From assembly GCA_040954595.2 (NCBI GenBank), contig CM082576.2, positions 9,675,129-9,739,128 on the forward strand: a stretch of 64,000 bases of DNA, read 5' to 3'. This DNA comes from Balanoglossus misakiensis (lineage: Eukaryota > Animalia > Hemichordata). The translations under genes were made by a program, and so were the position numbers. Of the stretch, positions 29,071 to 51,300 are shown piece after piece. A model generated the notes under the pieces. That model ran no database searches. It was not told where the DNA came from and saw only the letters and a program-made list of their open reading frames with translations. Every line of letters begins with the position of its first letter. Position 1 is the first letter of the stretch.

Positions 29071-30840
29071 AGAAGCAGGTACAGAGGAGTCTGCAAGTTT
29101 TTATATATCACATGTGTTCTACTTGTTTCTGAAGACCGGATATCGAGTTGTGTTCCAAATGACTTAATCAGAATTCACTACATTCTCAGGATAAAATGCT
29201 GACACCCGCCCCTTTCATCGACACGTTCTTCCGTTTCTTTTATCTGCTGATATCTTGACATTATCACTTTTGCCTCGTTTTTTATCTTTCCAAAAGAACC
29301 AGAGACGACAGAATGAGTTTTGTGTCTCGCGGGTGATGACTTCACCCTTACATTAACCTGGAGAGCTAACGGCGCGGACCATGTCGGCTCCCATCAGAGT
29401 CAAGACACTTCATAAAAATGTCCTTGTTGCGCCCTTTCATCTTTCATCAAGTCCCGCCAAACGATGCCGTTGTTGCACGTTCTCAAATGCTTCAAGATTT
29501 TCCCCAAAAACACGCGTATTATAAGTGCATAGTGCAGTGCGGGGCGACGTCAAAGTGGAGATTGTTATCATTTGACATAACGTTGTTTATAAGTTTCCTT
29601 CGACAGGAAAATGGTATTGGGGGGGGGGGGAATTCTGCTCGTCGAATCCAATTGATTAGCTGACGTGAACACCTGTGCATGTGATATATTTGAATCAATT
29701 TCGTTTTGCCACACAATCCATTGTGGTCACCTGACAATTTTATTTCCCACGTATATACGGGGCCAATATATCTATGTATTTTTGGTTTTGTGAACTTTTC
29801 TCGAGAAAAATAATACTATAACCCAGCTTTTTTGAAATAACTTTTTCATTTCTCGTGTCAACACATCCAGACACCGTCCCCTTAATTAGTTTCACCCTGA
29901 CCCCAACCCCCAAACCCACCTGATGATCCATGACGTCATTGGGGACGTTTCCTTTTGACGAGTTCAAAAAGATCAACCTTGAGATTCAGCTTTTCATCCT
30001 GCCCATCCACTGATGGCTTTTATCTCCTTTTTTCCGAATTCGTATTCATTTTTTTAATAGCTGGAGATTTACTGGTCCCATTGGCAATAAACACGTGTCC
30101 GTGATATATCGACACTTTGAATTTAATAGAAAACAAGGACGTTAATTGACGCGATTAATGTATTAACTAATTTATAGGTTTCTCCTTTTATTTCTAAATT
30201 CAATACAGTATTTTTTAACAAATGATTTATCCGCACATTATTCTATTATTGTCGCAGTTAAAGCTACAAATATGCTTCCGTGCGCGTAAAAACGGTGAAG
30301 TCCTATTTTTCTTCCGAAATGATAAGATTTTCCCCCGATAAAGTTAATCAAGGGAATTGTGATACAACCCCAGGACAAGAAAAACAATCACATCAAAACC
30401 GAAATGCATGCAGCCAGGCGTTCATGGATTGACTCGTCTACTATCATGTCACTCTATCCCCCCCCCCCTCCCCACATCTATAATGCCTTCCGGAAATGCG
30501 GTTTTTATAGAATAGAAATTTTGGAGAAGAAGAAAACACTGGATAATTGATTTTCATGACTCAAGGAGAAGTAAAATAAGCATGCCGTGTGCGTATCTCC
30601 GGTTCTTAAGACTTTTTTTTCTCTTCTCGGGGACGTTCTCAATTATTTATGTGCGTGTTGCGATTACAGTCCGGTGCATGCAGAGCCACCACAACTGAGT
30701 AAGGTAACACCATGTTAACATGAAAACCTGAAATTCTAAGTGCGAGATCGGGTCGCAGTTTAGCACGGGCCCAGGTTTCCACACATTTAACAAAAGAGTC
30801 TGATATAAATCTCAATCGTCATCATTGGGTGTTATATACT

Positions 30841-30995
30841 ACCTGTCTGTCTTTGTATGTTTCTGTATCTCTCATCCTGTCTCTCTGCCTCTCCGTCTCT
30901 GTCCCCTCTCCCTGTCTCTCTGTGTCTGACTCTGTTTGTCTGTCTCTGTCTCTCTGTATCTGTCTGTATGTCTGTCTGTCTGTCTCTCTCTCTCT

Positions 30996-31026
<31 letters not shown>
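30841..31026. repeat. Compound (CT)n/(TGTC)n low-complexity tract
   Basis: Directly visible; same repeat type as 28837-29070 in the opposite orientation. Confidence 0.9.
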
Positions 31027-34000
31027 AAGGAGGGAAGCCAATTTTAAGCATTACACTTCCCCTTTTTATTGACTCGGATTTACCATCATCCAAACCATTA
31101 GCAAATTCAACGTGTTCAAATGTATTTTAGTGTGATGTATACTTAATGAATGCCCTAACAACGTAACTAACAGAATGCAATGTACAACCAACAAATGTTA
31201 TTTGAGACAGGAAAGAAAAGCCACCGTGAGATATTCAGGGCGGGAAAACGTTCAATTAAATCAAGGCGACGTGACAACAACCTCCATTTATGTACAGTCG
31301 TAGATTTGAACACATATCGAGTGATTTGATATACGATTATGGGGTATGTGCTCGTCTGCATATGGTCACTTAGTAAGAGTTGGATTTTTGTTCATACCTT
31401 ATTTGCGTGAAATGATTCGAAACCTCATTATTATTAATGGATGAACGGTGGATTCGCGAGCATAATTCTAACAGTATTTCTGTCTTAATTTTCATCGTGC
31501 ACCATTCAGTCGTCACAGATGTCAACGCACTGAAAGGCGCGACTGGGTAAAACAAACAATAAAGTGTTCCCAATATTTCTTGAAATGATAAAGTCGAGCT
31601 TTCTCGTTCAATCACACAGGAGTGTATACGTGCATGTACGAGCCACGGCGTTCGCGACAGCTCAACAAAACCCGACCACGTGCCTGATCCAATTATCGAC
31701 CTGTTGGCAGTGAAACCAAATTAGACGCATGCGAGCTAGATCTATGGACCTTTTTCTCGTTTGCAAAGCAGACATTTTTTTTCTGTACACGAGTTGATAT
31801 CGAAATGGTTTTACGTAAGCCAGGGTTCTGATAAGTAAGCTTAATGTTCGAGAGGCTTTGGCAGTAATAACGCAACGCGCCTTTGTTCGTGGCAGCTCGA
31901 AAGTCCTTCAAATGTTGACACAGGAGAACTCTTGGGAGTGAAATACACCGAGGGACAGGTGGCCGAACTTTTTATTTGGCCTAAAATCTGACGACGTCGA
32001 GTAAAACGCGATTTTATTGTCAGGATTCATCCACGGGATGGCACTATAGTTGCTTGCCAACACCTGAGGCCTTAGACTTCTGCCCTCTGAGTAGAAATTA
32101 TAAAGGTCATGACGCATGCTCTGCATTGTTCATTTTTTAGCAATACCGGTGTCATCAGTGTCATGTCGTTTGGCAAACTGGAACTCGTGCGTAATGTGTT
32201 TGCGACTTTGACGGCGTCTTTATCTGGTCTAACCTCGGTCTACCGCTTCAAAGCCGAACCCAACTGCACGTTGTACATGTAAGCTAGTCAACACCATTAA
32301 TAAACGAAAAGGTTTTCGCCAAGCAAATCGAAAGTACACAATTTTTGTAGGCCCAGATAAAACGGGAGACGGAGATCAGTGACAAACGAGCGTCTCAGTA
32401 TCCAGGGAGTTTCGCGCCTTATTGCAAAGCGACACATTTGATCCGATCACGTCGGTTCAATCGTTTGAGTACGACAAATCGGCGCGAGCGGGATTTCCAA
32501 ATATCACGAATTCTAAACCCACTCTCAATTTTAAAAAAATCTCGCACAAGGTTAAAAAAAGTTGCTTGATAACTTTCAAATGTAAAGTACCAACGTCGTT
32601 TTACTGCCGCATGCAAAAATAGTTTTATTTCTTTATTCGTGCATTAAAAAACAGACGTTCATTTCCTACTGTTGAACTGCCAAACAGTTGGGTACAGACA
32701 AATTCTGAAAAAATTAGAACGAATCCTTCTCAAATGACGTGATATCATAATATACTGAAGTTCGGGATAGATTACTGAATGTGAAAGAAACCAGACTTTG
32801 AACGATCGTGGCATCCTGGGCATGTTTCAAATGTCGTCGATTTTTCCCCCCAAGGAGGAGTTCCTTGGGAACATTGAACATATGGTCAAAGTAAAATGAT
32901 ACAGAATCCTTATTGCTGCATGCAGCATATATAGAAGTGTCAGAGAATGCGTTTCTTTTTATCACCCCGACACAAAAGAAAATCCAAGCTATTTTTAAAT
33001 TAGATGTAAAGTCATGAGATCCAAATTGGCTGCACTGCCCCTGGAACGTGTATCGTATCACCGTCGTTTGTTCGCCGGCAACTGTGTTCAAGTCAACCAT
33101 CACGATAGTTTATCACCCATCATTGACTGCAACACGGTGTATTATTATTCTATAGCTGCCTCGGCTAAAAATAGTGTATTAGAGTTCAAAAGCTGTCGGC
33201 CTTCACAATGGCGTCGAGCGCCAGTGTGGAAACTCAGTCTTATTCATGTTTCACACATGCACTGTGCAACTTCGTGGTAGTGCCATCATGTGCGCCAGTC
33301 CCAAACCAGATCAGAGAAAGAGACGGTATACACGAGTCTTTGTCACAAGTAAACTCCCTAAACACGAACTCAGGGCGAGTATATCCAGCCTTGCATTCAA
33401 AACACCAATCACCTACGCAATCCTCGTAAAGTGGAATATCGTGGAGATTTCACCAAGACACTTACACTTCAGATTTTATCCCGCGGATCACATCGATGAA
33501 ATATTCCAGTGCAGTTTAAACATAACTTAACGCCGTGGGATCGTGGCTTTTGCCATCCATTTTTTAGTCGCGCGGGTAGCTAAATCCGAGACAACTTTCC
33601 AGAGTTTTACTTAAATAACTTCGCAAATAATTATAACATGGATACTAATCCCGTATCTACATGAGGAATATTGTGTCATCTCAGTTATACACAACGCGAA
33701 GTCGAATGGCAAGAAATGTCTGTTGACGTTTCATGATGTGGCGACACGTCAAAAGGCAAGAGATTATGCCCTCAAATGTCAAAATAAACTTTGGTTTCAA
33801 ATGTAGCCTGTACATCCCACTCACATTTTCGTTCACTTTTACAAGGACGTGTTTGCAACATGACGCGATGGCTATGTTCTCACCTGAACAGACAAATCCA
33901 TCTTAGAAGTACCCTGGGGCTTGATATCACAGACCCGTCCGTAACTCTTGTTTTGAAAATCGTGTCATTTTTCCGGGGTTTAACTAGTTTTCATATAATT

Positions 34001-35290
34001 GTTTAAGTATCATTGTCATTATTCCCGGGTCGTACATTGGAACAAATGTAACAGTGTCCGTATGTCTGTCTGTGATGCCTGAATGTACTGGACAAGGATA
34101 CAGTTTTTTTAAAAGTTTGCAATCATCGACACTCGATGCACGACAAATGGAATTGCCTCACGCGCTCAGAAATTATAAATCGCCAGTATAGCAGACAGCA
34201 CTCCCAATGGAAAGACAGGCCGTCGGTTTCTGGTGGCATTCGTTATCCCCTGTTATTCCCATTCCTAAGTGACGGGGATCTAGGTCGTCGTGATGAAAAG
34301 TTGTCAACAGATTACGACCTAAATAAATATAAAAAACGATGCTTCATATTATGCGAAATGCCCCAAATGAGCCCCAAAAGACTCATTCGTAGTTTTCAGT
34401 TGATAAAAATGATACAAACGCGTGTCTGGCCCAAGAGAGGGAGAGAGAAGCACCGCACGTCTCTTTGCTTAAATGCTATAGCTAATGGCTGGCCGCTCCA
34501 TATAGATGGTTTTGATGATAATTTTACGCGCTTCCGCGACTTCCCGCTAAGACGCGCCTGATTCGAGCAGAGCACTACGCAATAATAGAAACTAGCGACT
34601 GGGAGCTTCTATAGCGTGCAGGGTGGAAAGACTATTGTTACACAGAGTCTCGGCGGAGAGGAAAACTTCGACGAATCCTCGGGTTTTCCTCCCTGAAGTA
34701 CCGTTTCTGATAATCGAGACATCCCTTCGAAGGAAAGGGGATAGGAAGCGCGCGCGAGGAATGTTGAAATTCGAACAGTGGTATACCGTCTGGAATAAAT
34801 GAGCCGTGTGATTTAATTCTCCCTGCCAAATCAATTTGCACCATTTACGAAACCACCTCTAGGGTACCACTCCACGACTGAAGATGTCTTCACGACTTGG
34901 CCCTGTGCCATGATGCTGTAAAGCCAGAACAATGGCTACTGTTTTCCCCATGAAGACGGTAAAGTAGGAGCCAGGCAGTAAGAACTGAATGATTCGAATG
35001 ATCAAAACAGAACTTACACCGAAATAAAATTACATGTACATATATGTTATTCACGCGTGATTAGGGTTTTAAAAGTCTCCTGAAAACAGATATGTTTAAT
35101 GTGGTTTCCCAGCGATAGAGTAACAACATGTAGCACATCAAAATTCATAATGTTGATTGTATTAGTTCCTTGACGCACCTAGCCGGGGGCGGTGGAAGGG
35201 GGGGGGGGGGGGAGATCGTCACGGCATAAATTGTCGCCGCCCACTTGTAGTCCCGCGAGTTAATCTGGGCCTTTTACGTTACGGTTGCGT

Positions 35291-35494
35291 TATAAAAGCG
35301 GGCAAAGAGGTGACCACTGGTTATGCCGTTTGTAGCAACAGTGGAGCGAACAAGTTGAAAATATTCTGTAGGTGAGTGGGTTTGGGATCAATGAGTGGCA
35401 CGCCCGAGCGTTCTGTGCTTGACTGAGCAAGTGCTTTTAAATTTGTATCTTGTAAGGGACCAGGGTATTTAATTATATTTCCTTGTCATTTCAG
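35291..35494 (+). promoter_or_regulatory. TATA box, short non-coding first exon and 5'-UTR intron of peptide precursor gene A
   Basis: TATAAAAG at 35291-35298. Donor TAG|GTGAGT at 35372 and acceptor TTTCCTTGTCATTTCAG ending at 35494, 44 nt before the ATG. A G-rich tract at 35185-35212 and a half-CRE TGACG at ~35171 lie upstream. Confidence 0.6.
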
Positions 35495-35538
35495 ACTCGT
35501 CATTTCTGAGCGCTAGAAGTTGTTGTGTGAGACACAGA

Positions 35539-36192
35539 ATGATGTCCATAGGCCAGAAGATGGGCGTCTGGTTCGTAGCGCTGTGTTTGATAGTTTTATG
35601 CGATGGACCTGTAGGTGGCGTCAGGCCGATCACGGCGTTTCCACCGGGCCGCTGTCTGCCCAACCAGCCGTACAACCCGTTCTGCAGACTCCTCGACCTG
35701 GAAACCCAGGAGGAAGCGGCGTCGAATGTGGCCAAACGGACTAGGTGCATGCCGGGGATGGAGTTCAGTTTCTACTGCAAGATAGGCAAACGGGCATCCG
35801 GTGTGACGGGCGGGGAAGGCGAGGAGGCGGCGGCGGCCGGGAGGAACCCGCAGCCCAAGAGGGTGTCCCTCGACATCGCCGACTGTTCGATCGGACCCGA
35901 CGGCGAGGTCGACCCCGTCTGCGAGAAGCGGCGAAAGCGGATGCTTCAGCGGAGAGGTGTCGGCAGCCACTGCATCCCCGGCAGCGAATTCAGTTTCTAC
36001 TGCCGCTTCAGAAAAGCAGACGATTATTTTTCCCAGTTGGCAGAGGCGAATCTTGTCGAGGCGAACGACGGCGTTGAAGACGACACGGCGGCGACAGGTG
36101 AGAACACTGGCAGAGATGACCGATTACTGAGGAACGAAATAAGAAGTAAGCCTTTAATAGAACAAGTTGCAGTAGTTCATAGGAATAGATAG
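35539..36192 (+). CDS. Secreted prepropeptide A: multi-peptide precursor with four two-cysteine rings, neuropeptide/hormone-like, family not recognised
   Basis: 217-aa ORF from the first ATG, GC-rich relative to its flanks. Hydrophobic N-terminus (KMGVWFVALCLIVLCDG), KR/RR/KRRKR/RK sites and acidic spacers. Rings: CLPNQPYNPFC, CMPGMEFSFYC (followed by KI-G-KR, an amidation signal), CSIGPDGEVDPVC, CIPGSEFSFYC. The C-terminus may differ if the donor at 36098 is used. Confidence 0.85.
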   Translation: MMSIGQKMGVWFVALCLIVLCDGPVGGVRPITAFPPGRCLPNQPYNPFCRLLDLETQEEAASNVAKRTRCMPGMEFSFYCKIGKRASGVTGGEGEEAAAAGRNPQPKRVSLDIADCSIGPDGEVDPVCEKRRKRMLQRRGVGSHCIPGSEFSFYCRFRKADDYFSQLAEANLVEANDGVEDDTAATGENTGRDDRLLRNEIRSKPLIEQVAVVHRNR

Positions 36193-37484
36193 ACTAGATC
36201 TAGAATTATTTTGTGCTTTCAAAGAGGTTTCCAATTTAGATAGACACAGTTGAGCGGGGTATCGTGTTGAAGAGATGAAAACCCGGGTGTTTTTTGTAAG
36301 ATCAATTCGTAGCATATGTCAAAAATCTATTTTGAGTGAAATCAACTTGAGTCAAACAGGTATTCGTATGTAGGCCTACAAGTCATGTCTCTGCCCGTGA
36401 CGCACCAACAAGGGGTCAACGACTTTTGGAAGACACAGTCGTGACGGAGTGAAAAAAAGAGACGTAAAACGCAGGCATATGTCCGACAAATATGCTTGCT
36501 TGGGGCAACATACACGGTAATTTGTTGCTGCATGGGATGTAAACTCCGATGATGTACAACCCATTTCTTCCCGACGCTCCATTACACGAACGACGGATCG
36601 ATGGCAACGCGGCGTAGAGTCATTGTGAGGCAGCGCTCATACCCGGCAAGCATGACCTCGACCGGTATCGTTACAAAGCACACCCACCGCCGAGATTCTC
36701 ACTTCCTTCGTCATGGATTCTGAAGTGAGAACGGTAAACTATGGCTTAGGTTCAGTAGCGATGGCGATATTTTGTAGCGTCCGTGGCAAAGTGAAAGGAT
36801 CGGTCCGCAACACTTTAGACGTACAACCAATTTCATATTGTGCTTTCATGTTTATCGACGCAATCGGTGCAACTGGCAACTGATAAGGTGTGTTCTACTC
36901 GCTCAAGCGTATTAATGGCACGGTGTTTAAAGTTGTCGTGTCGATAGTAATTGTACGTTTGCGGCTGCAAATACCTTTTAAAGTGCTACCCCATATTGAC
37001 GCCGATTTGCCAATTATAGGCGCGGCTCAAAAACTCAGCTGTCACAAGAAATGATGCATTTTGGGGGCGTTTACAGCTAGTTCGACAGAATTCATGATGC
37101 TATTATACACCAGTCCTCCTAGACTTGTTACATAATTCGAGACTGTTATACAGTAGACAGAATTTATTTTTAAAATATCTGAGAAAATTGGAACGTATTT
37201 TGACAGAAATAAATTTCAGAGAGTTACGCGCACCCCGTGAAACTTAAAGCAACGCCAATCCATTTGGTTTATCAATATTATACATGTATATGGTTATTGT
37301 TCAGTTCTGAAAAAAAAAAACGATTAGATTCCAGCAAGATTAAAATAAGCTCTCCGGTTATGCAGGAAGTGCTCTGGTTATCGGCGAAGTTTTCATGGTC
37401 TCATAAATTCGTGACTAGACGTGTACATAAATTTATTTATATTTTTGCGTTCATCATCTAATCGTGATGTCTCATTCTTTGCAG

Positions 37485-37543
37485 GGATTATGCTTAATCA
37501 GTTGAATCAAGAGTAAATGGCCAGTTTATATCTTTGTAGAAAG
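37485..37543 (+). other. Candidate 59-nt internal exon (alternative 3' end of precursor A, or UTR exon of precursor B)
   Basis: Branch-like CTAAT (~37458), acceptor TCTCATTCTTTGCAG|G and a consensus donor AAG|GTAAGT at 37544. Confidence 0.4.
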
Positions 37544-38689
37544 GTAAGTAGTTTACTGAATAGGCAAAAACTTTGAAAACATGATGTTCACTGAAGCGTG
37601 AATCTGTATTCCAATATTTCATGCCGCTGCGAGTACAAGGACACCGATTTTGAATTAGAAAAGGACACCGTTATGCGCATCGGTCGCTGCGCAGAAGATG
37701 GCCGCCTGCCAACCAACCAATTGAAGTTATCTTCCGTTTAGTTTGGAGACGACTGAGTCCTTCAACACTTAGATGCACACTTTTCTGGTACAGCGTGTTA
37801 AAAATGTTGACATTATTGTTGCAGTGGTGGTAGAAGCTGTACAGATCCACTGGTGGCCCCGCATTGGGGGGGGGGGTGCGCCCTTAGATTTCTCCGCCCA
37901 TACTTACCCAGATCGTGTCTTGTGAGTGTAGCACTAGCAGCAAGCAGACACACACCTCTTGGTGATGAGTACAAGAACGTGACACAGCCGTCGCTCGAGT
38001 GTGAAATCGTGGCAGACATAGAGAAAACGCGGCCACTGAGACTTTCCAATCGTCCGTCTTTGGAGTCTCAACCACAGTAAATGAAAACAAGTAGACGGCG
38101 AAATTTGTGATACACTAGAAATCTGTCATGGAAGAATTCGAACGCTGCGCCCAGTACACAGTTTGTCACGTCTGAACACTAACTATATACGCGACGGGCT
38201 CCACTCAGATGGAGTTGCCCATTGAAATTTTCAGGCGCTGAGCGAAAATAAAATGAGTTATAACAATATGGCATCATGGTTTCAAATATAAGAAGCCGGG
38301 AATATACTGTGTAAAGACGGCACTGCTACTCAGGCCTTAAATTCTATACTTTAGTTTTCTCGCGGTATTTGAAAGAAAATGGGCAAAACTGTAAGCGAGA
38401 AACACTGCGCTCTACCAGACCGGCAGGGGAGAAACAAAAAACAAATCCACGCGGCACTGACACCGTGCTTTCACGCTTCCCGAGGTTTCTCACCCTTCAA
38501 ACGCGAAGAAAAAACAACGCTTCTTGTCAGCTTCCATCCAGAATAGTGTGATTGGAATTCTCGACAACTACTGGTTGACGCGACGTGGCTAAGGCTGAAT
38601 TTAAGGGGATTAGCTAGAAGATTCCGCTCGTCTTTATGTTTTTTTAATATTGTCCATTGGATCATTTAGGGGCGTGGGTCTGTCTGTCA

Positions 38690-38813
38690 CATTCTCCGTA
38701 CAGAGATTGTAACTAAACCCTAGCTAGGAGGACTGACCGCACCAATAGCAGCCAGTCAGAGCCCCTAGCTAGATTAGAATTATCCACGCGCTACAATCTC
38801 TGTACGGAGAATG
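38690..38813. mobile_element. MITE-like 124-bp element with perfect 22-bp terminal inverted repeats
   Basis: CATTCTCCGTACAGAGATTGTA (38690-38711) is the exact reverse complement of TACAATCTCTGTACGGAGAATG (38792-38813). There are also inner inverted CTAGCTAG..CTGAC / GTCAG..CTAGCTAG arms. Confidence 0.7.
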
Positions 38814-41800
38814 GGTGTGTCACTTACGTCTCCCGATACTAGAACGAGATTCAGACAGTTGGGCACGTCGCCATATCAAACCAATCCCCAACACCAAATC
38901 TTCATGCGATTTAACTCACTCTCGGTGCAATAACGCACACGCGACCCCAAAACAGAAGATATGCGACAACGAGGACGGCGGAATCAAAATCTCTGCACAA
39001 GCTTCTCTCTGCCATGCGTTGCCATGACTACAAACTCCAGAACACGAAGAAGACGGTAATCAATAAATGTTGATGCTATCGTCCTCGCATCGGTGACTTT
39101 ATTCTTTATTTCTCTCTCTCTAAATATTTAACTTTGTTGCCTTTATACGATACCATCACTTTTTTTCTAGTCTGCCATGCAAAGAACGCGCATGTTATCG
39201 TCAGAGCCATCTTCTATGTACATGTACATATATCATGGCCATTTTTCAAAAGCGGTGTCTCGCGAAAAGAATAAAAGAAATCGCTTCCTCGTGACTGTAT
39301 TTCAGTACATCACGCACGCCATGTTGGAATGCTCTCAAGTCGCAAACTTATCGTGTTACGGCTTTCAAAGAAGGCATCAAGATTGGCTGTCACTGCGCTA
39401 ATAGAGCAGATTGAGTCATTGGTGTTGGCGGAAGACGTGCCTACCATTGGAGTAATTCGATTCCGGGGCTTCGTTACGCACTCACCGCGTTCGGTCCTTT
39501 CATTGCGGCACACGTGTGTCAAAGTGTCAAATATGATATTTTAACTTCGTGGGATGCAGCGTTTTCTACCTCTTATTCGCCAAAATTAGATTAAGTTTGC
39601 TTAGACAGGATGTTTAATAAAAATCAAATAACCACGGCATATTTATGTAACTGCATGATCTTTTTTGTGGTCCACATGCCACGTAAGGTCGGTGACTGCT
39701 AAAAACGCCTTCATGTATTTTGGTCCATTGTGGACCATTCAGCCGGTTACGTGTTTTCGGCAACGCTCCCCGATGCGGTGTTCTCAACCACGTTTTAAAA
39801 ACCTTATTTTTTCCGGTTTGACCTAAGCACAGTCGAAATTGGTTCCAATAGTAATGCGTTTCTGATATCTGAGTATAGAAGCCAGGAATATGTTAGCTAG
39901 AACTCGCACAACTTTTCTTGATTCCCGGCCCTCAAGGCAGAGGGTCTGTCGCTAACCGGTGCTAACTGATGGGGAAATTATTTATTTTCGGGGAAACACT
40001 GCCCATGCAGTGTCGACCGTTGAAACCCGGACGAGGTCTAAGAGAAACCTGCCATCGGATTTTATGGCGCGTGCGACGGTACCGCCGGCAGTCCTCAGGG
40101 ATCTGCCTGTTTATATCGCGTGTGATATTGTGCTGTGAAGTGAATGAGACGGAACACGTCAGATTCAGATTTATAATTATTGCCTGAGATCAGTCTTCTT
40201 TCAAATGTCAACGCGTTTTTATCCGATAGATGATTCCGGTCGGAACCCGCTGAGCGCCAATTAAAAAGCGTTACTTACGATCATACTAAATTGGACATTT
40301 ACAACCGATTAATTTTTTTAACGCGCTATACGAGGCCCTAGGAGATATCCGGAGTACCTCCTGCAGTGCACTGGGCATTGAAAACTAGTGTGTAGTATAG
40401 AACAGACTGCGAGAAGAATAAGTGTGGTTGTTTCTCGGGTAAACACATTTACTTAGAATTTATTTGGCAGACAACCCCCCCCCCCCAAAAAAGGACTCTA
40501 CTCCGACAAATTTGAACATTTCAACCTCTTCAGTATCATTTACGCCTTGGTCCCCCTGAAAATACAGTCGCTAAAATGTTCCCCCAAAACGGAGAAAGTA
40601 GGCGGATATCTTTCACTCGAAAGATTGTAGATTATTGATCAAGAGCGCTCATTGCATACAATAATGTTTTCCTTACATTTTTTGTCTTTCAATTCCTTTC
40701 AGACTTTTCAATATGCCAACCTGGACTATTTTCTCAGTGCACCTATATACTTGCCCGGTCCAACCAATTCCGCTTGCAACTCTCATGGTGTCTAGTGACC
40801 TATGTGTTTCACACGGCGAAGTTTCTTCGACTTTTAAACACTTTTGTGACACGATTCCCAATAAAACAAAATGTCTACACGTATATATTACCATATATTT
40901 TAGCCTCAAACGGTATTAATATCGTCTCGTTCGTGCGTATCCCGGACGGTAGCTGCACAAAACTTCACCCGTGGTGATATGATATATATTTCATTCAGAG
41001 TGACAAACATTTATTTTGAAACATCTTTGTTTGACCTATAACAATAAACGTATGAATTTATAAGTTGAATTGCACGCATGTCATCTTAGTCTATATTTGT
41101 TCGCTCAATAAAGTATTTTTTCGGAAGAGTATCTTCTTTCTCGGATCCGTGACAGGCTGGGCACCTGAACTCTGGCCTGCTTGAATTGGCTTTGGTTTGT
41201 CCGACCATGTCACTCGCCAGAGAGAGGGAGGGGCAGAGAGAAAGAGAGAGAGATGAGAACATTTTCTTTTGGGTCAAAGTTGTCGACGGGATTCCGTGCC
41301 ACCTAAAGTGTTGGCTGCTGGTGCATGTAGGCCTTAAACTTTACAGCGAGCATTCCTTTCGGTCATATTCTCTACCTGAATCAAATCATAATTTCCAAAG
41401 AATAACAAAGACACACAAAGCTTGAATAAACACGCATGGGCGCTAATTGCTGCGGCTTATAGCCGTCAACATAAAGGATTCATTACTGGAAGCTGCGGGA
41501 AGTGTGTCTCTCTATACGCACACAATCAGCCACAGGTTAACAAAACGTAAACAGCCCTATACATCATAAAATAAAATCCATTCTCCTATTATCGCATTCA
41601 GAACGATAGCCAAACCACACCGCGTGTGCTAACAGCGTAAACTATACGAAGATGGGTAATGAACGGACTGAACTGATAACCGCCCGTGAGGACCTTGACC
41701 GTGGGCACACACTGCCGAGTGCCGGGTGACATTTTGGGGAAGCTACTGCAGACTATTGGGTTAATTGGCCGAGTTTCTTTGCCTTGTGTAAAAACGCAAG

Positions 41801-44219
41801 GAGAGACACGCAAAGACTGGATGTCATGGTTGTATATAGACGTACTTAGCAAAACGGCACCCTAAATCTTCTTCGGGAATTTTGGTGCACCTATACATGT
41901 ATATGCGAAGTGCAACAGTTACACGTGCCACCTTGGATGTGTCGTCAACACCCATTTCACGAAAGACGACCAAAATATCACCGCTTTGTACGACGGCAAT
42001 TAATTTTTCTTACATACCATATATTACACGAATTACTATTATTGCGTTACACTGGTACATTAAATTCCCGCGCAAGACAAATTTAACATCGTTAATTTAT
42101 AGCAGTGGATTTACATAATCGAGTTCTAACGGTCAACAAGTCCCGGGCTCTCGCGTAACAAATACAATATTATTCGATCATCATTTCTGACATCAGTGTA
42201 CACTCCACTTAAGTCGACATGTTCTGAAATTGGTGACAGAAATATGCAGCGATGATGGATGGTTGGATTGGAGGCACATCAGAAGGGAACCTTGGGAGGC
42301 TTGTCGGAAGGAAATTCCGCCTCGGTGTTCGTTGTGTCACTTTATTTTATAAAAACATTCGTGCAAGAATTTGATATAAGCACAAGGGCGCCGTGGCGGT
42401 GAATTAATAGGGTATTTTGCGCTCACAGCGAGATCTCGCGAGACTTGGGTGATTACCAAAGCAACGTGAACGGGATCCTAGCCAAGTCAAATGGTCTATA
42501 ACTAGTACCTCACGTGTCACAAGATGGAAAGTAATCTGCCTGCCAAGGGGGAGTTCGGGAACCAGATTACAAATTATGCAGGAAAGAATCCACTCACACA
42601 CAAACAATTACAGTTAGACTGGTCAGTGACCTGTGATGTACATTCTGTAACGTTTCGGGAGACGACAAGTTAAACTGGTTTGTTCTATTGACGTGCAGAA
42701 CAAGAGAAAGCGATGAATGGCGTTTGCGTCATTCAACGCAGTGAGATTATTAATTTTTGGTAATAATATATATACTTTCAGAGGCAAATCGGCTGTTAAA
42801 TTCTCAAGGAACGCCGTGACGCTGAATTTGTCGCCACCGGGGAAAAACGTGACAAAACTTCAATAAAACGCTGGCGTACTTTTCAACATGCACGCGTAGA
42901 GATAGGCCTACTGAGCAATTTCTAAAAAAAAAAATCTGAATTTTCCATCGCGTTTCATTCAAAGGAAAAGTTGCTCTGTTACAGTTGTAGTGACGTGCTA
43001 AGTGACGTGTTACTAGTAGTCTGAATGTAAACCAAATACACAATGGAGAAAGTGACGTCTCTCCTGTCATCTCCGTAGTTCTTAAGGCAGTCTTAGCGAT
43101 TTGTATTGTACAGTCTGTATATCCCTTCTCCACGACGACGCCATCCATATTGCCCAAAATGGATCACGTATTGTTCAGTTGGTCGGTTAATGAGCATGTT
43201 TCGAATCAGGTGTCTCCTGCAAATAGGCCTCCCTAACCTGTGTTTGGCGCGCAAATTCACGATAGAAATACGGTACTTTGGGGAAATTCTGATAAACACG
43301 CGTTCTAAAAATCCTTCCATCCGGGCGTTGCATCGGTTTGTAACCAATACTGCATTGAAACGAGGGACCCCCCGGAACAGTTTTGCTACCTGTTTCGCGC
43401 GTGTCTTTTCTCAATAAAACAATAAAAACATCGACCCTAAAGTCTAAACGCCAACCCAGTTAGATCTCCAGCATCTGTGGGCAGATCGTGATTTTCGCCT
43501 CAAAAAGACGAGGATTAACTTTTTCTCCCCGCCCCCTGATAAATGGTGTTTGCTATTCAGGAAATTGCTGACAGTTTACTGGGACGATGAATATCGCTCA
43601 CGTCGCTTCTTCTCTCAACAAAAGATTGACATCAAGGAGAGACATCACGAGCGAGCTATCTTTTGTTCCACGCAGATGTAAATCTGCAGGTAGATTGTTT
43701 TACCGTTCATAAATCATGTACGGAATTCCGCTCGGTGATGCAGTGCAGTGGGGGCACTGGTGTAATTATCATCCGTTACTCGCGCCTGCCCACTCTCTAC
43801 ACCCTGAGCGAGTTGAACCGTAATCCGGTCCTCGTAAAAAAACGGTAATCTCTTAATTTGACTGCCGGTAATACTATCTGAACACGTCACCCTTCATAGG
43901 AGACGACACGGCTGTCGTTGGCCGAATTCGCTATAAAGCTTACACGTTACGCATGTCTTTAAAAGCGCGTACTCCCACACTTGAGTTCGCGTTTGATTGA
44001 CTAATACAGGTACATAAATCACTATCATCCTATTAAGTAAAAAGAAAAGATCCACCGTGCACATGGGAGGAGTCACGCATCCTTTTCTGACGAGGTACAC
44101 TTCTACAAATAGAAGTGCAGCAACGGAGCCCATCGCCGGAAGACTGTGTCCTTGTTTTGGGAACTGACTGAGAAGACTAATATTGGCTGTTTTTTATTCG
44201 GGCCTGTGGTGTCGAAAGT

Positions 44220-44648
44220 ATGTCGGCGAGACAGGCTTATTTCTGCGCTTTCGGGGTTCTCGTCTTTTGCCAAATTTTGGGAATGGGCTACACGTATGAA
44301 CTTAGAGACGTCATTCTCGGCTCGCCCTGTCGACGCGGGCGCGAGACGAGCGAATATTGCCGGCGACTGCTAACGCCGCAGTCGTATGTCACGACGACGG
44401 GGACCGAGGATTCTAGTTGGCGGGAGTTGGCGACAGCGTTAGCTGATGTACTGCTCGGGTCCTTCTGTACTCCGGGGCACGGTGATATGAACCGATACTG
44501 CAGAGAGCGGCTGATTCGGGGCGCAGAGTCGCCCGCATCAATCGAGAAACGTCGGTGTATACCCGGTATGGAATTTAGCCACTTCTGCAAAGGAAGTTCG
44601 TGGTTACAACGCAGCGGTCATTCATATTTTCCAAGTCCTGCACGGTAA
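44220..44648 (+). CDS. Secreted prepropeptide B, paralog of A, with three two-cysteine rings
   Basis: 142-aa ORF with a signal-peptide-like N-terminus (MSARQAYFCAFGVLVFCQILGMGYT). Rings: CRRGRETSEYC, CTPGHGDMNRYC and KRR-CIPGMEFSHFC-K. The last ring matches RCMPGMEFSFYCK of precursor A at 10 of 13 residues. The stop codon lies inside a donor-like CG|GTAAGA. Confidence 0.8.
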   Translation: MSARQAYFCAFGVLVFCQILGMGYTYELRDVILGSPCRRGRETSEYCRRLLTPQSYVTTTGTEDSSWRELATALADVLLGSFCTPGHGDMNRYCRERLIRGAESPASIEKRRCIPGMEFSHFCKGSSWLQRSGHSYFPSPAR

Positions 44649-45513
44649 GAATGGTCGATGCAACGATCACTCGCATCCGTTGTTTCTCAAAGTTTTATTG
44701 AGCGATGGCGATTCTTGTTTGGCTACGTACTGTGACAGGGTTTGAAGTTTTTTTCTATAATACTGGTAATTGCGCCTTAGTACAAGCACAGACAAGAACA
44801 TTCAAATGATTTCGAAGCAAAGGCAAACGTGTGGCTAAACTTGCTAAACACTGCTATGATTCTGTTTTAGACCGAAGTTGTTGTTGACTTTGATTTGATC
44901 CACTCAATATCACAACTTGAATGGTCATTTTCATTGAATTTCACTGGTAGAAAGAAAGGGCAATGCCATTGAACTGTGCCAGCTTGTACACCAGACTGCT
45001 TACATGGGATATGCCAATAGCTCTTAGTATGAACGTAGATATGGTGTCTGGCGATGAGAGGGCAATCACGTCCGTTTAATATCTCGAGGAACTGGGAGTA
45101 GCCAGAAATACTCGCTTTTCCCCCTGAGGCCGACACATGATTACGTCGATCATTTCATTTTAGTCAATACCATACATTGGTTCTCAGTAATATCTCTCTG
45201 TTGTCTATGATGATATCAGGCCCAAATAGGAGGAGAAAAAAGTTTAACACTTTGAGATACCGCGATGTAAACTACTTTTAATTACCGCGTTGACAACGAT
45301 AAGTTAGGCCTATCGCTGATTATTAGGTTAGATGCACATATGCTATTAACAGTGTCGCTACGATTTTAATAATTGTTATCGACATTTGGATGGAGAAGGG
45401 ACATAAATGAAAGACTTTCTTTTTTTATCAGTATTTTCGACGTTATTGATGACCCACATATCGGTACCGGTCTATATACATGTATAAGATCCAGATGATG
45501 AAATCACGGTTGA

Positions 45514-45664
45514 CACGTTTCTTTGTGATTGGTCAATTTCTTTAATATCTGACGCTGGACTAGTAGAGCAAAGCGGTTTCATTTCCCCCCGGCGAAGGCT
45601 CTCATTACCTATCATAGTAAATGACCGGCACGTTTCTTTGTGTTTGGCCAATATCTTTAATATC
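45514..45664. repeat. Pair of 36-bp direct repeats (3 mismatches) 79 bp apart
   Basis: CACGTTTCTTTGTGATTGGTCAATTTCTTTAATATC (45514-45549) and CACGTTTCTTTGTGTTTGGCCAATATCTTTAATATC (45629-45664). Confidence 0.85.
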
Positions 45665-48000
45665 CAGCCAGGTTATATATTAAAAGGTTCCCTCGCTATT
45701 GTTCACCGTCCTCGAAATTCCTTTCTAATTCTGCAAGCTGACAGAGCATCTGTACCGACTCCAGTGGTGTCACTGAATAAGGACTTTTCGAAAATCACAC
45801 ACGGTGTACTGGTACGCTTCACGCTGCACTCAATTACACACGACGCATAATTCGAAATACATCCTTCCCGGGATTATTGCAAAAAGCGTATTCGTGTTGG
45901 GCATGGTGTAATTTACCGTGACGATGACACACGTGACGCGATGCCTTTCTTGCTGTTGACTTTTTTATCTGCCCCCCCCCCCCCCAGCTTATACCCCTGA
46001 ATAAAAATTGACGTGCTAGATGAAATGCCATTGGAATGCCATTAGCAATTATTAAGGTAGTATACACCTCGAAAATCAAAGTCTTGAACTTTTGCTCATA
46101 TTTTGCGCAATTGCACGCTATACATGTACCCCAAAATCCCAGCTAACACTATAATTACTTGATACGAATGGGGATGTTCGGCGCTATCGTTACATGCATG
46201 GTCCACGCAGCTCAACATACAAAGGCATTGGTGATGAGGGTGTAGTGAAATCCAGAAACTTATTTTGGCTTTCGTTTCAGGAGTTGGAAAAAACTTGCCT
46301 CCGGCCGTTCAAGACCCACGGGAAGATGACAAGGTTAATTGGCCTGCGGTCTTACTAAGTCTCAACCGTATCCAGGGGCAACCAGCTACAGTTACAGAGT
46401 TTTGCCAATTAGGGACAGGGAAATGGAGAATTTGCCGATATCGTGTGAGATAGAGAACTCGTTAGCAACGAACCTGAGAGTGATCTTCAGTAATAAATGT
46501 CTATTGTATACTTATACCAATACTGCGTATTTTCAGATTTTACATGAAACGATTTGATGTATTGTATAATTATTATACGACGTTTGCACTTCCATTCTGC
46601 GGAAATAAAAATGGCAAATAAACAGTTGCTATAGTCCATTCACACTCGTTCATTTCAAATGTCATTCTACACGTGTTTATAGTGGGCTATGGTACATTTA
46701 GTTTAACTAAGCGGTTTCTGTGCTTTGTCGATCAACCGGGAAAACAATCCACGGATGCCGATGACGCTGGCGACCACCTGTTGACTACGTCCACAATTCA
46801 GGATCGCCGTTGTTGGCGCACTGCTCTTATGGTAAACTTTACCTATAGGATGGGAAACATATTATACATGTAGTACAGGTCTGATCACGAAGTGAATTTG
46901 AACTTTGTTTTCAAACTTTACAGTCAACATTTTTTCCGACTTTAACTTAATCTTCAATTTTTTTTAGTTCAATGCCTTCTTTTGCGTTAATCTTCATTTT
47001 GATAAGTTTCGTTTTCTCTTTGAACGTGGTTTTGATTTCATTTTGTGCTCTTGAATTTAAATTGTATCGCCAGCTTGAACATTGTTTTAAACTGGCTCTA
47101 GCTAAAGCCAATCTCGCTCCAGGGTCTATGCAGCAGCATACTGAAGTTTATAGTACAATAGAATACCAGGATGACACCTGTTGCAATGAGAACATATTCT
47201 GTGAACTTGTCCCGTGTAGCTGTCGAAGGTATGGTGACTTCTCTTGTTTTAGTCTGATTCAAAAATTAAATACTACTGGGCGGGCGTTGGTGGCGCTCTT
47301 CGAAAAGATGAACATGTTCGTTTTACCATGGAGGGTTTTACCCACAGTCACTACGTGCAAATGTTCATGACACTGCATCGTTGTTGTTTACCTTTTCTTT
47401 CGAGCATACTTAATTAATTCATACGGGAGTGTAACCAAGTCCCAAAGCATGTCATTTGCTAAACTTGCTCGAAGCTACGGAATTCAAAAATTTCAGTGAT
47501 GCCTCGTAAAACTCTCCCACTGGCCAACATAAGCTTACATGCCCGATATAACAAACGCAAACTTCATACTATTTTCTTATGCAAATAGGCCCACTTGAGT
47601 ATTTTTTTTAAACAGAAAAGGGGAATCAGTGATTGCCTACAATTATCCGCGAGAGTCTTATCTTTTCCTAGACTATAAAACGACAGTACTTTACATATTG
47701 TTTCAAATGGAAGTATCGCAATGCAACAACTGTTTCGCGAGTAGCACCACTGTCAGTGCCGCGGTGCCCCCGGCCCCAGCCAGTGCATGTAGAGTCCAAT
47801 GGCCATAAGGTTCAGGCGCACGACGGTGTGACGCAGAACTAAACAGACCTATCGTCTTCAAATACAAGCATGTCGAAAATGCCAGGCGTTATATCAACAA
47901 TGTCAGGCTCAGTATGACGTACATGTACTCTTTTATTGTCTCCGATTCTACGGGGATCCGCAAATGACCTGTCTATCCCTCTCTATTGTGGTGTCCGTCC

Positions 48001-48141
48001 TTCACCATGGTAACACCACGCTGTACTTCGTGACCATGCCCTTTGACCCACGTTCAGTACAGCCAGCAGCTACGGCTCATCCGGGTACTTCCCTTAGTCA
48101 CGTGACCTGTGGTCGAGAAGAGAACAGGGGATCGCCATTTT
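48001..48141 (+). promoter_or_regulatory. Putative TOGARAM1 proximal promoter: RFX X-box-like, palindromic E-box and YY1-like motifs
   Basis: TTCACCATGGTAAC at 48001-48014 (X-box consensus GTNRCCATGGYAAC, first base mismatched), GTCACGTGAC at 48097-48106 and CGCCATTTT at 48133-48141. These lie ~170-310 bp upstream of the ATG of a ciliary gene. Confidence 0.55.
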
Positions 48142-48313
48142 TGTTCTGAGATTTACATGGTTTCTAACTCGGATTCCGGCGACAAGAAATCAACAAAACT
48201 GGGGATAAATCACCTATAATGTGATCCAAATGATTGATCAATTATCAGGAGTCACGTAGATATACCGACTGCCGTAACCGTTCGCGCCTTTGGCGAAGTA
48301 AGAACCAACTTGG

Positions 48314-51300
48314 ATGGCGAGTACGGTTGCCAAGTTTGCGGTATACAACATCAATAATGAAGATTTCTTGAGCACAAGAAACATTTCAAAAAGTATGGAA
48401 GAAGATGTTGTGCTGGAGCAGCTTTCTGATGACAGATTTCAACAGAGATCGGAAATCCTCGATTACCTTAGGACGGAAGTTCGCAAACATGGCGGTAGGA
48501 TACAATTTCAAAACATGTCGGCGTTGTTCAGGGGTCTGTCAAGAGCCCTGGCAGACTCGAACTGGACTGTCAGACACCACTGCGTCCAGCTTATATCAGA
48601 GATGATAGCGGGTCTCGATGATGATCTCGACACGTACATGTCGACAGTCCTCCCCAAATTGGTAGCTAATATTGGAGACAACAAAGTAGCTCTTCGCAAA
48701 GCTGTCATCCAAACATTACACCTGTACATGAAGCATTCCAGTGACGTCCAGAATGTTTTCCACGCCATCGTAGAACACGGTTTGGAGAGTCCGGATCCCA
48801 AAGTTAGAGCCGAAACCACCATCAATTTCCCTCTGTTGCTGACCGCAGAATTCGCGAAACAAGACTTATTTACAATAACGCAGGCCTTGGCCAAAAGACT
48901 GAACGGCAGCGCGGAAAATGAAGAAAACAAGATAGCAATCATATCGCTGGAGAGGATCCGGGGGCTGGTAGGAAACGAGGTATTTGTCGGCTATGTGCAG
49001 AGATTGTCCAAACCCGTCAAACAGGTGTACCTACAGCTGACCGACAGGGATGAAAACGGCTACGACGGACCGGTCGATGTGAACTTAAACAGCAGCAAAG
49101 GTGTCCTGGGAAGTGGCACGTGGAAACGTAGCCACAGCCGCGACAGCGACACTGTTGGAAGGGGTCTTGAGTTCGGTATCATACCCAAACACATTATGGA
49201 TCAGTTATTGGATCAACATGATTTACGAGTCAGGGCCCAAGGCATCGAAGGTCTGCGTGAAATTATGAACGACATGGCAGACCTGGCACCACTCCTGCCT
49301 CATATATTGGCATTCATCAGTTTCCTCTGTAATTTACTGGATGATGTGAACTTCAAAGTTACCACTGTAACATTAGATATATTCGATAAACTGGTCAATA
49401 AATTAGGACAAGGAGTTAAACCATACCTCAAGTCGCTGATGAGCGCCCTGACGAAACGACTCGGTGACAACCAAATAGTTATCCGTCAAGCCAACATGAA
49501 AGTTCTCATGCACTTGATGCAGATTCTCACACCCAAACCAATCTTGAACCAACTAACTGATAGTTTGCAGCATCGGAACTCGCGAGTTCGAGAGGAGGCC
49601 CTGAACATGGTCATAGCGTCGCTGCTCACGTTCCCCAGCTACGACTTTGATCTCGGACAGTTGTGTCAAACGATCGCACACACGCTGGTGGACCCCAAGA
49701 GGAAGGTGCGACAGGCCTCCCTGGAAGCGTTCGCTGTCCTGGCCCAAGCGATGGGCCCCGGCAGGCTCCAGCCGCTGGTGTCGGCGGTGGACAGCGTGGA
49801 ACTCAGCATGGAAGGCGACGGCGTCATGGCAGCGGTGCAGGCACGGCTGGCCAGGCGACAACTCCCGAGACTGAATAAAGACGGTCTCGTCGAATACTCA
49901 ATCCCCCTACCGGCTTCGGCCACCACGAGAGGATCTCCCCCGAGCGCCGACATCGAGTGGATCATGGCGGCTGCAGGCGGCGGAACGAGCAGTGCCCGGG
50001 AGAGGAATCACAGCGAGCCGCAGCGCGAACTCTCTCAGCCCATGTCGGCCAGGTCTGCGTCGGGACAACACGAGAACGCCGGGCCCACTCCGGCTCCCAG
50101 GCGATACCATAGTGCCGGAAAGAACAGGAAGAAATTGCCTTGGGAAGAGCTGCCGAATGAAGATGATGGTGTAGAATTGGAGAAATTGGAGAACTCAAAT
50201 CAAAGAAACCACCCCAATAGTGCACCGTCACACGTAAGTACAAAAATAGAAATAAACATACATGTACATGTATATGTACATGTACATGTATGAACACCAC
50301 AACATTTATATTTTAGATTTTAATTTTTCTACCCTCTTTGCCTAATAAACCCTTTTAAGTCAAATAATAGTAAAAAATGTTGAATAACAATAGAACTCAT
50401 TGTTTTAGTTATAAATAATAATCTTGATCTGAATTTTGATAACAAAAAGGTGAAATTAAACTAAAATGTCAGAAAAAATTCATTCTTTAGAAGGGAACTA
50501 CATGTATAATCTTCTTAAAATGAAATTGCAAAATTAAATAAAAACAAACAGTGACTGAAAAGACACAGCAGTGGAAATTGTTTCCGTTGTTCTGCAATGG
50601 ATCATTTTACAACTGCAAAAAGTAATTCCTGTGGCCAGAAATTTATAAGTGTCACCCCAAAGAAAAAGTTGTAAGAAAAAAAAGGTCTCTGGAATTAAGA
50701 AATCATGCCGTTGTCATCAGTAGATTTTTATACAATGTCCATGTACATGTAGGTCACTTGCACCCAACAAGTGTCATTTTGTATGCCTCTGGAATGGAGG
50801 ACAGGTTGAATGACCATTGATCGTTACGTCACAGAGAATAATGCATTACTCTAATGGAACCTAGATGAATTGCTGAATAGAAGTACCGGCGATCAATTTT
50901 TTTCCCTCTGCGTACATGTCTAATGCCCGCAGCCGTGTATGGCTGAGGCAGGCAGCCTGCGTCATCACCAATCAATGAGGCCTTGACTGCGCCCCGCAAA
51001 GAGTTGAATGCCGGTCAGTTTAAAAAGTTGAAAATATGATGGTGGCGCGGAAAATTTGGTGCGGGGAGAGCGATTTGCGGGTTCTCTTCACTGTTGACAC
51101 TGGTTTGAATTATTGATGAGATTTTGGCAAGTTGATGCCCAGCTCAGTCATGCAGATCAATAAGTTGGGAGTGAGCGTCCGCCAACAGTTGGCTATAGAT
51201 AGGTAACCCCATTAATATTTGATGTTGACCGATCGGATGTCGGGGCCACCTTTTGAGTCTTTGACACTACGACATGTAGAGGCCCTTCCTGTCCGCACAT

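What the first reader, a model, noticed from the sequence alone, without database searches (positions are those of the whole stretch)
44553..44591. Synonymous-site divergence shows protein-level constraint on the shared ring
Seen: precursor A has AGG TGC ATG CCG GGG ATG GAG TTC AGT TTC TAC TGC AAG (35743-35781). Precursor B has CGG TGT ATA CCC GGT ATG GAA TTT AGC CAC TTC TGC AAA. Ten of 13 residues are identical, and 8 of those 10 use different synonymous codons, while the flanks do not align by eye. Inference: an old duplication with purifying selection focused on the mature peptide. This argues that both ORFs are real genes and not chance ORFs or a recent DNA repeat.
Basis: seen in the sequence. 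Interest (0 to 1): 0.7.

Follow-up and report, generated by a model that had tools for sequence, protein, structure and literature searches.

The report
Acorn-worm cyclic neuropeptide precursor pair
Two neighbouring acorn-worm genes, conserved in other acorn worms but labelled only 'uncharacterized', carry repeated two-cysteine segments that are likely cut out and secreted as ring-shaped signalling peptides, a family I could not match to any named neuropeptide.

Summary
Random change rarely gives this (5-30 of 200,000 simulations), and the loci share no other DNA similarity.

Both ORFs are real genes. Gene A has orthologues in Ptychodera, Glandiceps and Saccoglossus. Gene B has a Ptychodera orthologue under the next accession number. 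A's two splice donors and its last exon reproduce both Ptychodera isoforms.

A has four cysteine pairs and B three; the 12 main rings across six proteins share C-x2-G-x-E-x4-C. Hydrophobic N-termini, basic cleavage sites and Gly-basic amidation signals point to prohormones. Main rings are better conserved than spacers.

Membership tests fail for somatostatin/allatostatin-C, MCH, elevenin and Hairpin DREP, although the first eight ring positions resemble mollusc Hairpin DREPs. No relative outside acorn worms was found. Expression, processing and receptor are untested.

Verdict: ordinary purifying selection, pointing to an apparently undescribed acorn-worm peptide family.

The parts
35291..35297 (+). 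TATA-like box upstream of gene A (inferred promoter)
   Evidence: sequence only
35372..35494 (+). putative 5'-UTR intron of gene A (GTGAGT donor, pyrimidine tract + CAG acceptor)
   Evidence: sequence only; untested
35539..36145 (+). gene A main coding exon: predicted signal peptide (about residues 1-27), four cysteine pairs, acidic spacers; alternative donors after 36097 and 36145
   Evidence: orthologues in three acorn worms; hydropathy and basic sites; both donors give products matching the P. flava isoforms, 196/212 aa vs 195/211 aa
35653..35685 (+). A ring 1 (C-x9-C), poorly conserved
   Evidence: 3-4 of 11 identical in orthologues
35746..35778 (+).
35884..35922 (+). A ring 3 (C-x11-C, ends D-P-x-C), between KR and KRRKR
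35971..36003 (+). A ring 4 (C-x9-C), the best conserved ring of A, between RR and RK
   Evidence: 9, 8, 7 of 11 identical in three orthologues
36146..37484 (+). phase-1 intron of gene A (GT..AG); the last 15 residues of the plain ORF are read-through into it
37485..37516 (+). last coding exon of gene A (nine residues and stop), matches the P. flava C-terminus
   Evidence: best acceptor scored 29 vs 13 for the next; tblastn 6 of 8 identical
43932..43938 (+). TATA-like box upstream of gene B (inferred promoter)
   Evidence: sequence only
44010..44112 (+). putative 5'-UTR intron of gene B
   Evidence: sequence only; untested
44220..44648 (+). gene B coding region: predicted signal peptide, three cysteine pairs. 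The stop overlaps a donor-like GTAAGA and the P. flava orthologue is about 30 aa longer, so a further exon is possible but was not found
   Evidence: 41% identity over 153 columns to XP_070578407; exon search negative
44328..44360 (+). B ring 1 (C-x9-C), degenerate main-type ring
   Evidence: (5 of 11)
44466..44501 (+). B ring 2 (C-x10-C), poorly conserved
   Evidence: 4 of 12
44556..44588 (+). B ring 3 (C-x9-C) after KRR; the finding
   Evidence: 9 of 11 with the P. flava orthologue

Best explanation
Genes A and B are two old tandem paralogues, shared with other acorn worms, that likely encode prohormones whose cysteine pairs are predicted to be cut out as disulfide-closed ring peptides and would act as neuropeptides or hormones on a cell-surface receptor. 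Shown: real genes, paralogy, 3-4 internal repeats of a two-cysteine unit, and stronger conservation of the main rings than of spacers. Predicted from sequence and textbook prohormone processing: the hydrophobic N-terminus routes the protein into the secretory pathway; each cysteine pair forms its own disulfide; PC1/PC2-type convertases cut at KR, RR or single R; and PAM amidates rings that end in Gly plus a basic residue. Inferred by analogy only: neuronal or endocrine expression and a GPCR target. The synonymous pattern is the usual footprint of long purifying selection on a receptor-binding peptide.
For: Orthologues of A in P. flava, G. talaboti and S. kowalevskii and of B in P. flava. All four A proteins keep 8 Cys and both B proteins 6 Cys after residue 30, with a single strong hydrophobic stretch at residues 6-25. 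12 of 12 main rings have C, G at +3, E at +5 and C at +10; P at +2 in 11 of 12. 6 of the 8 main rings of the four A proteins are followed by Gly and a basic residue within 1-2 residues. In window A every ring from 2 to 4 lies between dibasic sites. Rings are better conserved than spacers. No globular fold is predicted (pTM 0.19; weak, shallow alignment that included one false hit). The nearest language-model clusters are all neuropeptide precursors, scores 0.81-0.84, which the tool rates as leads only. PC2 and PAM are described in S. kowalevskii (PMC10508912, passages).
Against: No expression, peptidomics or receptor data. Signal peptides were judged by hydropathy only. B ring 3 has no dibasic site or Gly-basic signal directly after it in either species, and 0 of 4 main rings of B show the amidation signal. 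S. kowalevskii A has no dibasic site before ring 2 and P. flava A only a single R after it. A rings 1 and 3 and B rings 1 and 2 are little or no better conserved than spacers. Disulfide pairing within each ring is assumed, not shown.
Confidence: 0.72

Rival explanations
1. They are divergent deuterostome members of the mollusc/annelid Hairpin DREP family (Koch et al. 2023), with a loop shortened by three residues.
For: Mollusc Hairpin DREP rings begin after KR with C-R-P-G/N/D-M-x-F-N and Aplysia has two copies. Of our 16 eleven-residue rings counted, P at +2 in 14, G/N/D at +3 in 15, F/Y at +6 in 9, N/S at +7 in 14, M at +4 in 4.
Against: Ring C-x12-C in 0 of 22. R at +1 in 1 of 16 and P at +8 in 1 of 16. 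The family's phase-1 intron after the signal peptide and phase-0 intron after each peptide are absent. The AlphaFold model of B ring 3 shows no beta strand, only a short helix (pLDDT 57, weak). No PDB hit at E up to 10 apart from one unrelated chain. The motif was chosen after seeing both sets, and the annelid members lack P-G.
Confidence: 0.1
2. They are the missing ligands of the hemichordate somatostatin/allatostatin-C-type receptors, or of receptors of the elevenin/endothelin/CCHamide group, changed beyond motif recognition.
For: SS/ASTC receptors exist in hemichordates but no precursor had been found (PMC8851493). SS-type loops range from 10 to 15 residues. Ring 4 is followed by R-G in 3 of 4 A proteins, as in elevenin's C-terminal CRGVAA.
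Against: WK motif 0 of 22, FxP motif 0 of 22. Not a single C-terminal copy, and no phase-0 intron in the pro-region, both general in SS/ASTC genes. Elevenin precursors are single-copy, directly after the signal peptide and not amidated.
Confidence: 0.1
3. They are secreted but not neural: mucus, defence or gamete-signalling peptides processed in the same way.
For: Restriction to acorn worms so far and a multi-copy layout fit such peptides too (own knowledge, not tested).
Against: Rings are more conserved than spacers across three families of acorn worms, the pattern reported for signalling peptides and opposite to toxins (PMC9048919). The main rings are not cationic, unlike typical antimicrobial hairpins (own knowledge).
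Confidence: 0.12
4. The cysteines build one folded, uncleaved domain, for example a twin CX9C (CHCH) protein.
For: Most rings have CX9C spacing; AlphaFold puts helix at the end of each ring.
Against: No Pfam match for either window protein or five orthologues at curated cut-offs. Pro-Gly inside the motif breaks a helix. Spacers vary in length and hold basic cleavage sites. pTM 0.19.
Confidence: 0.04
5. Chance ORFs or a recent DNA repeat.
For: The 13-codon window was selected after the fact.
Against: Orthologues, conserved splice isoforms, and no DNA similarity between the loci.
Confidence: 0.01

Closest known systems
RefSeq 'uncharacterized' proteins: P. flava XP_070578400-406 (A) and XP_070578407 (B), G. 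talaboti LOC144453778, S. kowalevskii LOC100379065
   Same: Orthologues: same cysteine layout, ring motif and, for A, the same C-terminal isoforms
   Different: No function or family is assigned in the records; three gene/accession identifiers and the motif RCIPG gave no relevant paper
Hairpin DREP, putative neuropeptides of molluscs and annelids (PMC10501145)
   Same: Signal peptide, KR, then C-x-P-G-x-x-F-N/S; single-disulfide ring; more than one copy in Aplysia
   Different: Ring x9 not x12; no N-P-V-x-G turn; other intron pattern; invariant Glu at +5 here; no hairpin predicted
Somatostatin / allatostatin-C (echinoderm SS1, SS2)
   Same: One-disulfide ring of similar size; receptors present and orphan in hemichordates
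   Different: Multi-copy and internal, not single and C-terminal; no WK or FxP; no phase-0 pro-region intron; amidation predicted
MCH-type peptides
   Same: Two Cys, with Met or Ile after the first (10 of 12 main rings)
   Different: No conserved basic residue near the second Cys; not a single C-terminal peptide; an S. kowalevskii MCH precursor was already reported, whose sequence I did not see
Elevenin / CCHamide / endothelin group
   Same: Disulfide ring followed by R-G in ring 4
   Different: Those precursors are single-copy, with the peptide right after the signal peptide
Lineage-specific orphan precursors of echinoderms (Arnp22-25, PCNP1-20)
   Same: Predicted two-Cys peptides without a known family; Arnp22/23 carry two copies
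   Different: Arnp22/23/25 have four residues between the Cys; no CIPG, CMPG, CLPG or CVPG in the crinoid supplements; the Arnp24 sequence was not visible to me

Membership tests
Prohormone / neuropeptide precursor (general class) | N-terminal signal peptide, no other membrane segment | tested here: met
   Hydropathy only: best 11-residue window 2.4-3.2 at residues 6-25 in 6 of 6 proteins, at most 1.8 later; no SignalP available
Prohormone / neuropeptide precursor (general class) | Peptides flanked by basic cleavage sites, Gly for amidation | tested here: inconclusive
   Met for A rings 2-4 in the window and 6 of 8 Gly-basic signals in A orthologues; not met C-terminally for B
Prohormone / neuropeptide precursor (general class) | Peptide region better conserved than spacers | tested here: met
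   (main rings only; A rings 1 and 3 and B rings 1 and 2 do not clearly show it)
Prohormone / neuropeptide precursor (general class) | Expression in neurons or endocrine cells; processed peptide detected; receptor activated | not testable with these tools
   needs in situ hybridisation, mass spectrometry and receptor assays
Hairpin DREP | C-x-P-G/N/D-x-x-F/Y-N start of the ring (mollusc members) | tested here: inconclusive
   partial match, counts; motif chosen after the fact
Hairpin DREP | C-x12-C ring with N-P/S-V/I-x-G turn | tested here: not met
   0 of 22 rings of that size (family sequences)
Hairpin DREP | Phase-1 intron after the signal peptide, phase-0 intron after the peptide | tested here: not met
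   signal peptide and all rings lie in one exon in both window genes
Hairpin DREP | [quoted passage not shown] | tested here: inconclusive
   low-confidence model without strands
Somatostatin / allatostatin-C | WK (SS) or FxP (ASTC/SS1) motif in the loop | tested here: not met
   0 of 22 each (definition)
Somatostatin / allatostatin-C | Single copy at the precursor C-terminus | tested here: not met
   3-4 internal rings
Somatostatin / allatostatin-C | Phase-0 intron in the pro-region | tested here: not met
Somatostatin / allatostatin-C | Chromosome-level synteny with the SS/ASTC linkage group; receptor activation | not testable with these tools
   no genome is held for this window
MCH-type | Met/Ile after the first Cys | tested here: met
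   10 of 12 main rings (definition)
MCH-type | Basic residue near the second Cys; single C-terminal peptide | tested here: not met
   K/R two residues before the second Cys in 2 of 21 rings; none directly before it in 22 rings; multi-copy
Elevenin | Single copy right after the signal peptide, C-terminus CRGVAA-like, not amidated | tested here: not met
   only the C-R-G is shared
Twin CX9C / CHCH proteins | Pfam CHCH match, helical CX9C pairs | tested here: not met
   feature list from own knowledge

The most novel reading that the evidence does not exclude
These are the first deuterostome relatives of the mollusc/annelid Hairpin DREP peptides, or the long-missing ligands of the hemichordate somatostatin/allatostatin-C-type receptors; either would add a branch to the set of neuropeptide systems inherited from the bilaterian ancestor.
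Probability: 0.15. Interest if true: 0.72.

Novelty: new variant of a known kind. Interest (0 to 1): 0.45.

Why it matters
Hemichordates are the sister group of echinoderms and a key outgroup to chordates, and some of their neuropeptide-type receptors, including the SS/ASTC type, had no known ligand. A conserved, multi-copy ring-peptide precursor with an orthologue in the laboratory species S. kowalevskii gives short, synthesisable candidates for receptor screens and a possible neuronal marker. Against that, lineage-restricted orphan precursors are common in such surveys (20 in crinoids), and the synonymous pattern itself is ordinary.

Tried and rejected
No genome is held for this window, so other paralogues and chromosome synteny were not searched. 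B alone found no homologue at E up to 1; its orthologue came only from the profile search. A six-sequence profile found no new protein among 6456 candidates and missed two of its own members (P0006, P0007), so it is not exhaustive. P0008 (E 6.6e-4, metagenomic, no hydrophobic N-terminus, only one Cys per repeat aligned) was dropped as a false hit; it was still in the alignment folded. Pfam and PDB sequence searches were blank for the precursors and rings. No RNA holder listed. One contig of run X3, of guessed type, stops one base past A's second donor, but no splice joint was shown, so it is not counted as evidence. No downstream exon of B was found. 204 stop-to-stop ORFs between the flanking genes gave only two PCC/DUF296 hits: no receptor and no third paralogue (tblastn in 30 and 56). 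Both AlphaFold models were too poor for a fold search, which was not run. A second Atlas search did not complete. In one search one short ring was missed by the pattern and P. flava's rings were mis-numbered; counts for 22 rings are from the corrected. Earlier scan notes: nothing. Jekely 2013 is not held, Mirabeau and Joly 2013 was not looked up, and the FASTA supplements of PMC10501145 cannot be read; any of these may list this gene or further Hairpin DREPs.

Full report
Observation. Ten of 13 residues match; 8 of the 9 that have synonymous codons differ; identity by codon position is 11, 11 and 5 of 13. Nei-Gojobori gives pS 1.33 and pN 0.12. Twelve random substitutions keep 10 or more residues in only 5, 18 and 30 of 200,000 trials. 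The stretch was chosen for its identity, so these numbers flatter it, and synonymous saturation alone predicts 5.1 differences (P of 8 or more 0.04). Whole-protein controls are cleaner: A against B scores 79, above all 5000 shuffles (maximum 66), and sensitive blastn finds no DNA similarity between 30000-43000 and 43001-48300. This is an old protein-level homology, not a recent repeat.

Two corrections. The upstream flank does align (18 of 36 identical). And the ring is not a single shared element: A has four cysteine pairs and B three, and with B's ring masked B still aligns to A through its first ring (32 of 5000 shuffles as good).

What the genes are. The window is from an acorn worm. Protein A finds P. 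flava XP_070578400-406 (47% over 82% of the query, E 7e-47). A profile search of 1.84 billion representatives returned five hits: that protein, G. talaboti LOC144453778, S. kowalevskii LOC100379065, P. flava XP_070578407 and one metagenomic sequence that I dropped as false. XP_070578407 is the orthologue of B (41% over 153 columns); it has the next accession number after A's isoforms and a contig of the same length, which suggests that the pair is tandem there too. All are named 'uncharacterized'. A second profile search added nothing among 6456 candidates but also missed two of its own members, so absence outside acorn worms is not proven. B was not found in Glandiceps or Saccoglossus.

Gene structure. 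The plain ORF of A reads into an intron. Two GT donors (after 36097 and 36145) splice in phase 1 to an exon at 37485, giving 196 and 212 residues that match the 195- and 211-residue P. flava isoforms at the joint and C-terminus. This is the strongest single proof that A is a real gene. B's stop overlaps a donor-like GTAAGA and its orthologue is about 30 residues longer, but no matching exon was found. Both genes have a TATA-like box and a possible short 5'-UTR intron (sequence only).

Anatomy. All six proteins have one strong hydrophobic stretch near the N-terminus. The 22 cysteine pairs are 8 to 13 residues long; the 12 main rings (A rings 2 and 4, B rings 1 and 3) all have C, G at +3, E at +5 and C at +10, with P at +2 in 11 and S or N at +7 in 12. 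S. kowalevskii ring 1 also begins C-I-P-G, so all rings probably descend from one unit (inference). Six of the eight main rings of A proteins are followed by Gly and a basic residue, the amidation signal; none of the four in B is. Main rings are 17/22, 14/22 and 13/22 identical in A orthologues against 60/129, 34/129 and 35/129 elsewhere, and B ring 3 is 9/11 against 30/81 (Fisher p 0.0009-0.0066, without Cys 0.014-0.047, uncorrected). The other rings are hardly better conserved than spacers. Which A ring is the counterpart of B ring 3 is open: local alignments favour ring 2 against the window and P. flava proteins, ring 4 against the other two species.

How it most likely works. Predicted: secretion, one disulfide per ring, cleavage at basic sites, amidation of some rings, and release of several cyclic peptides of roughly 13-21 residues for the main rings of A. 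Inferred: neuronal or endocrine source and a GPCR target. PC2 and PAM are described in S. kowalevskii. The Atlas neighbours are all neuropeptide precursors but below the tool's threshold, and AlphaFold sees no globular fold (weak). None of expression, processing or receptor was tested.

Comparison with known families. SS/ASTC precursors were still missing in hemichordates in 2022, but these proteins lack WK and FxP (0 of 22), are multi-copy and lack the phase-0 pro-region intron. MCH shares only Met/Ile after the first Cys, and a Saccoglossus MCH precursor was already reported. Elevenin shares only C-R-G. The closest look-alike is the Hairpin DREP family of molluscs and annelids, whose mollusc rings start C-R-P-G/N/D-M-x-F-N after KR. 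But their ring is three residues longer, the turn residues and intron pattern differ, and the low-confidence model of B ring 3 has no strands. I treat it as a lead of about 10%. So the pair works like a multi-copy neuropeptide precursor and is a member of no named family that I tested.

Is it in print? Nine full-text searches found no description; one search used the gene identifiers and the ring motif. Seen: PMC8851493 passages and parts 1-2 of 9; passages only of PMC10508912, PMC4772807, PMC5627052, PMC5818035, PMC12002301, PMC7179676, PMC9048919, PMC8557429, PMC13311285 and bioRxiv 2022.08.05.502922; passages and supplement term searches of PMC13554239 and PMC9793003; a supplement search only of PMC6188537; for PMC10501145 passages, section 3.1, supplement searches and Data Sheet 10 whole. 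The 2013 bilaterian surveys and several supplements could not be seen and may list the gene, and subscription journals are not covered.

Verdict. Observation confirmed, interpretation supported and extended. The synonymous pattern is ordinary; what it marks is an apparently undescribed acorn-worm family of predicted cyclic peptide precursors with a testable orthologue in a laboratory species. Interest 0.45.

Noticed in passing
window 35746-35778 and 35971-36003: Window A ring 2 is identical (11 of 11) to P. flava ring 4, and rings 2 and 4 resemble each other more in these two species (9 and 8 of 11) than in Glandiceps and Saccoglossus (6 of 11): possible homogenisation of rings within the precursor.
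   Followed up: partly
window 36064: Run X2 carries a 6-base, in-frame insertion in the acidic spacer of gene A; the only listed indel inside either coding region, though 83 rows were not shown.
   Followed up: no
window 6600-35300: About 29 kb upstream of gene A without a Pfam hit in stop-to-stop ORFs of 62 aa or more; may hold regulatory DNA or non-coding exons of A (P. flava lists at least six accessions for two proteins).
   Followed up: partly
window 2950-4806 (-) and 5903-6563 (+): UBR7-type exons (zf-UBR, weak PHD) head to head with a PCC/DUF296 gene.
   Followed up: partly
window 48314-50293 and beyond: A 659-codon exon with TOG/HEAT repeats (TOGARAM1-like) starts 3.7 kb downstream of gene B on the same strand.
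   Followed up: partly
window 46972-47370 (+): 132-aa ORF with a hydrophobic N-terminus and several Cys between gene B and the TOG gene; no Pfam hit; may be chance.
   Followed up: partly
window about 38700-38800, 41200, 42410-42470, 46050-46110: Short high-copy repeats: depth spikes and many loose ends in the laid contigs.
   Followed up: no
window 39657-39849 and 44897-45151: One X2 contig joins these two stretches in swapped order, although blastn finds no similarity between the regions; allele, other locus or assembly artefact.
   Followed up: partly
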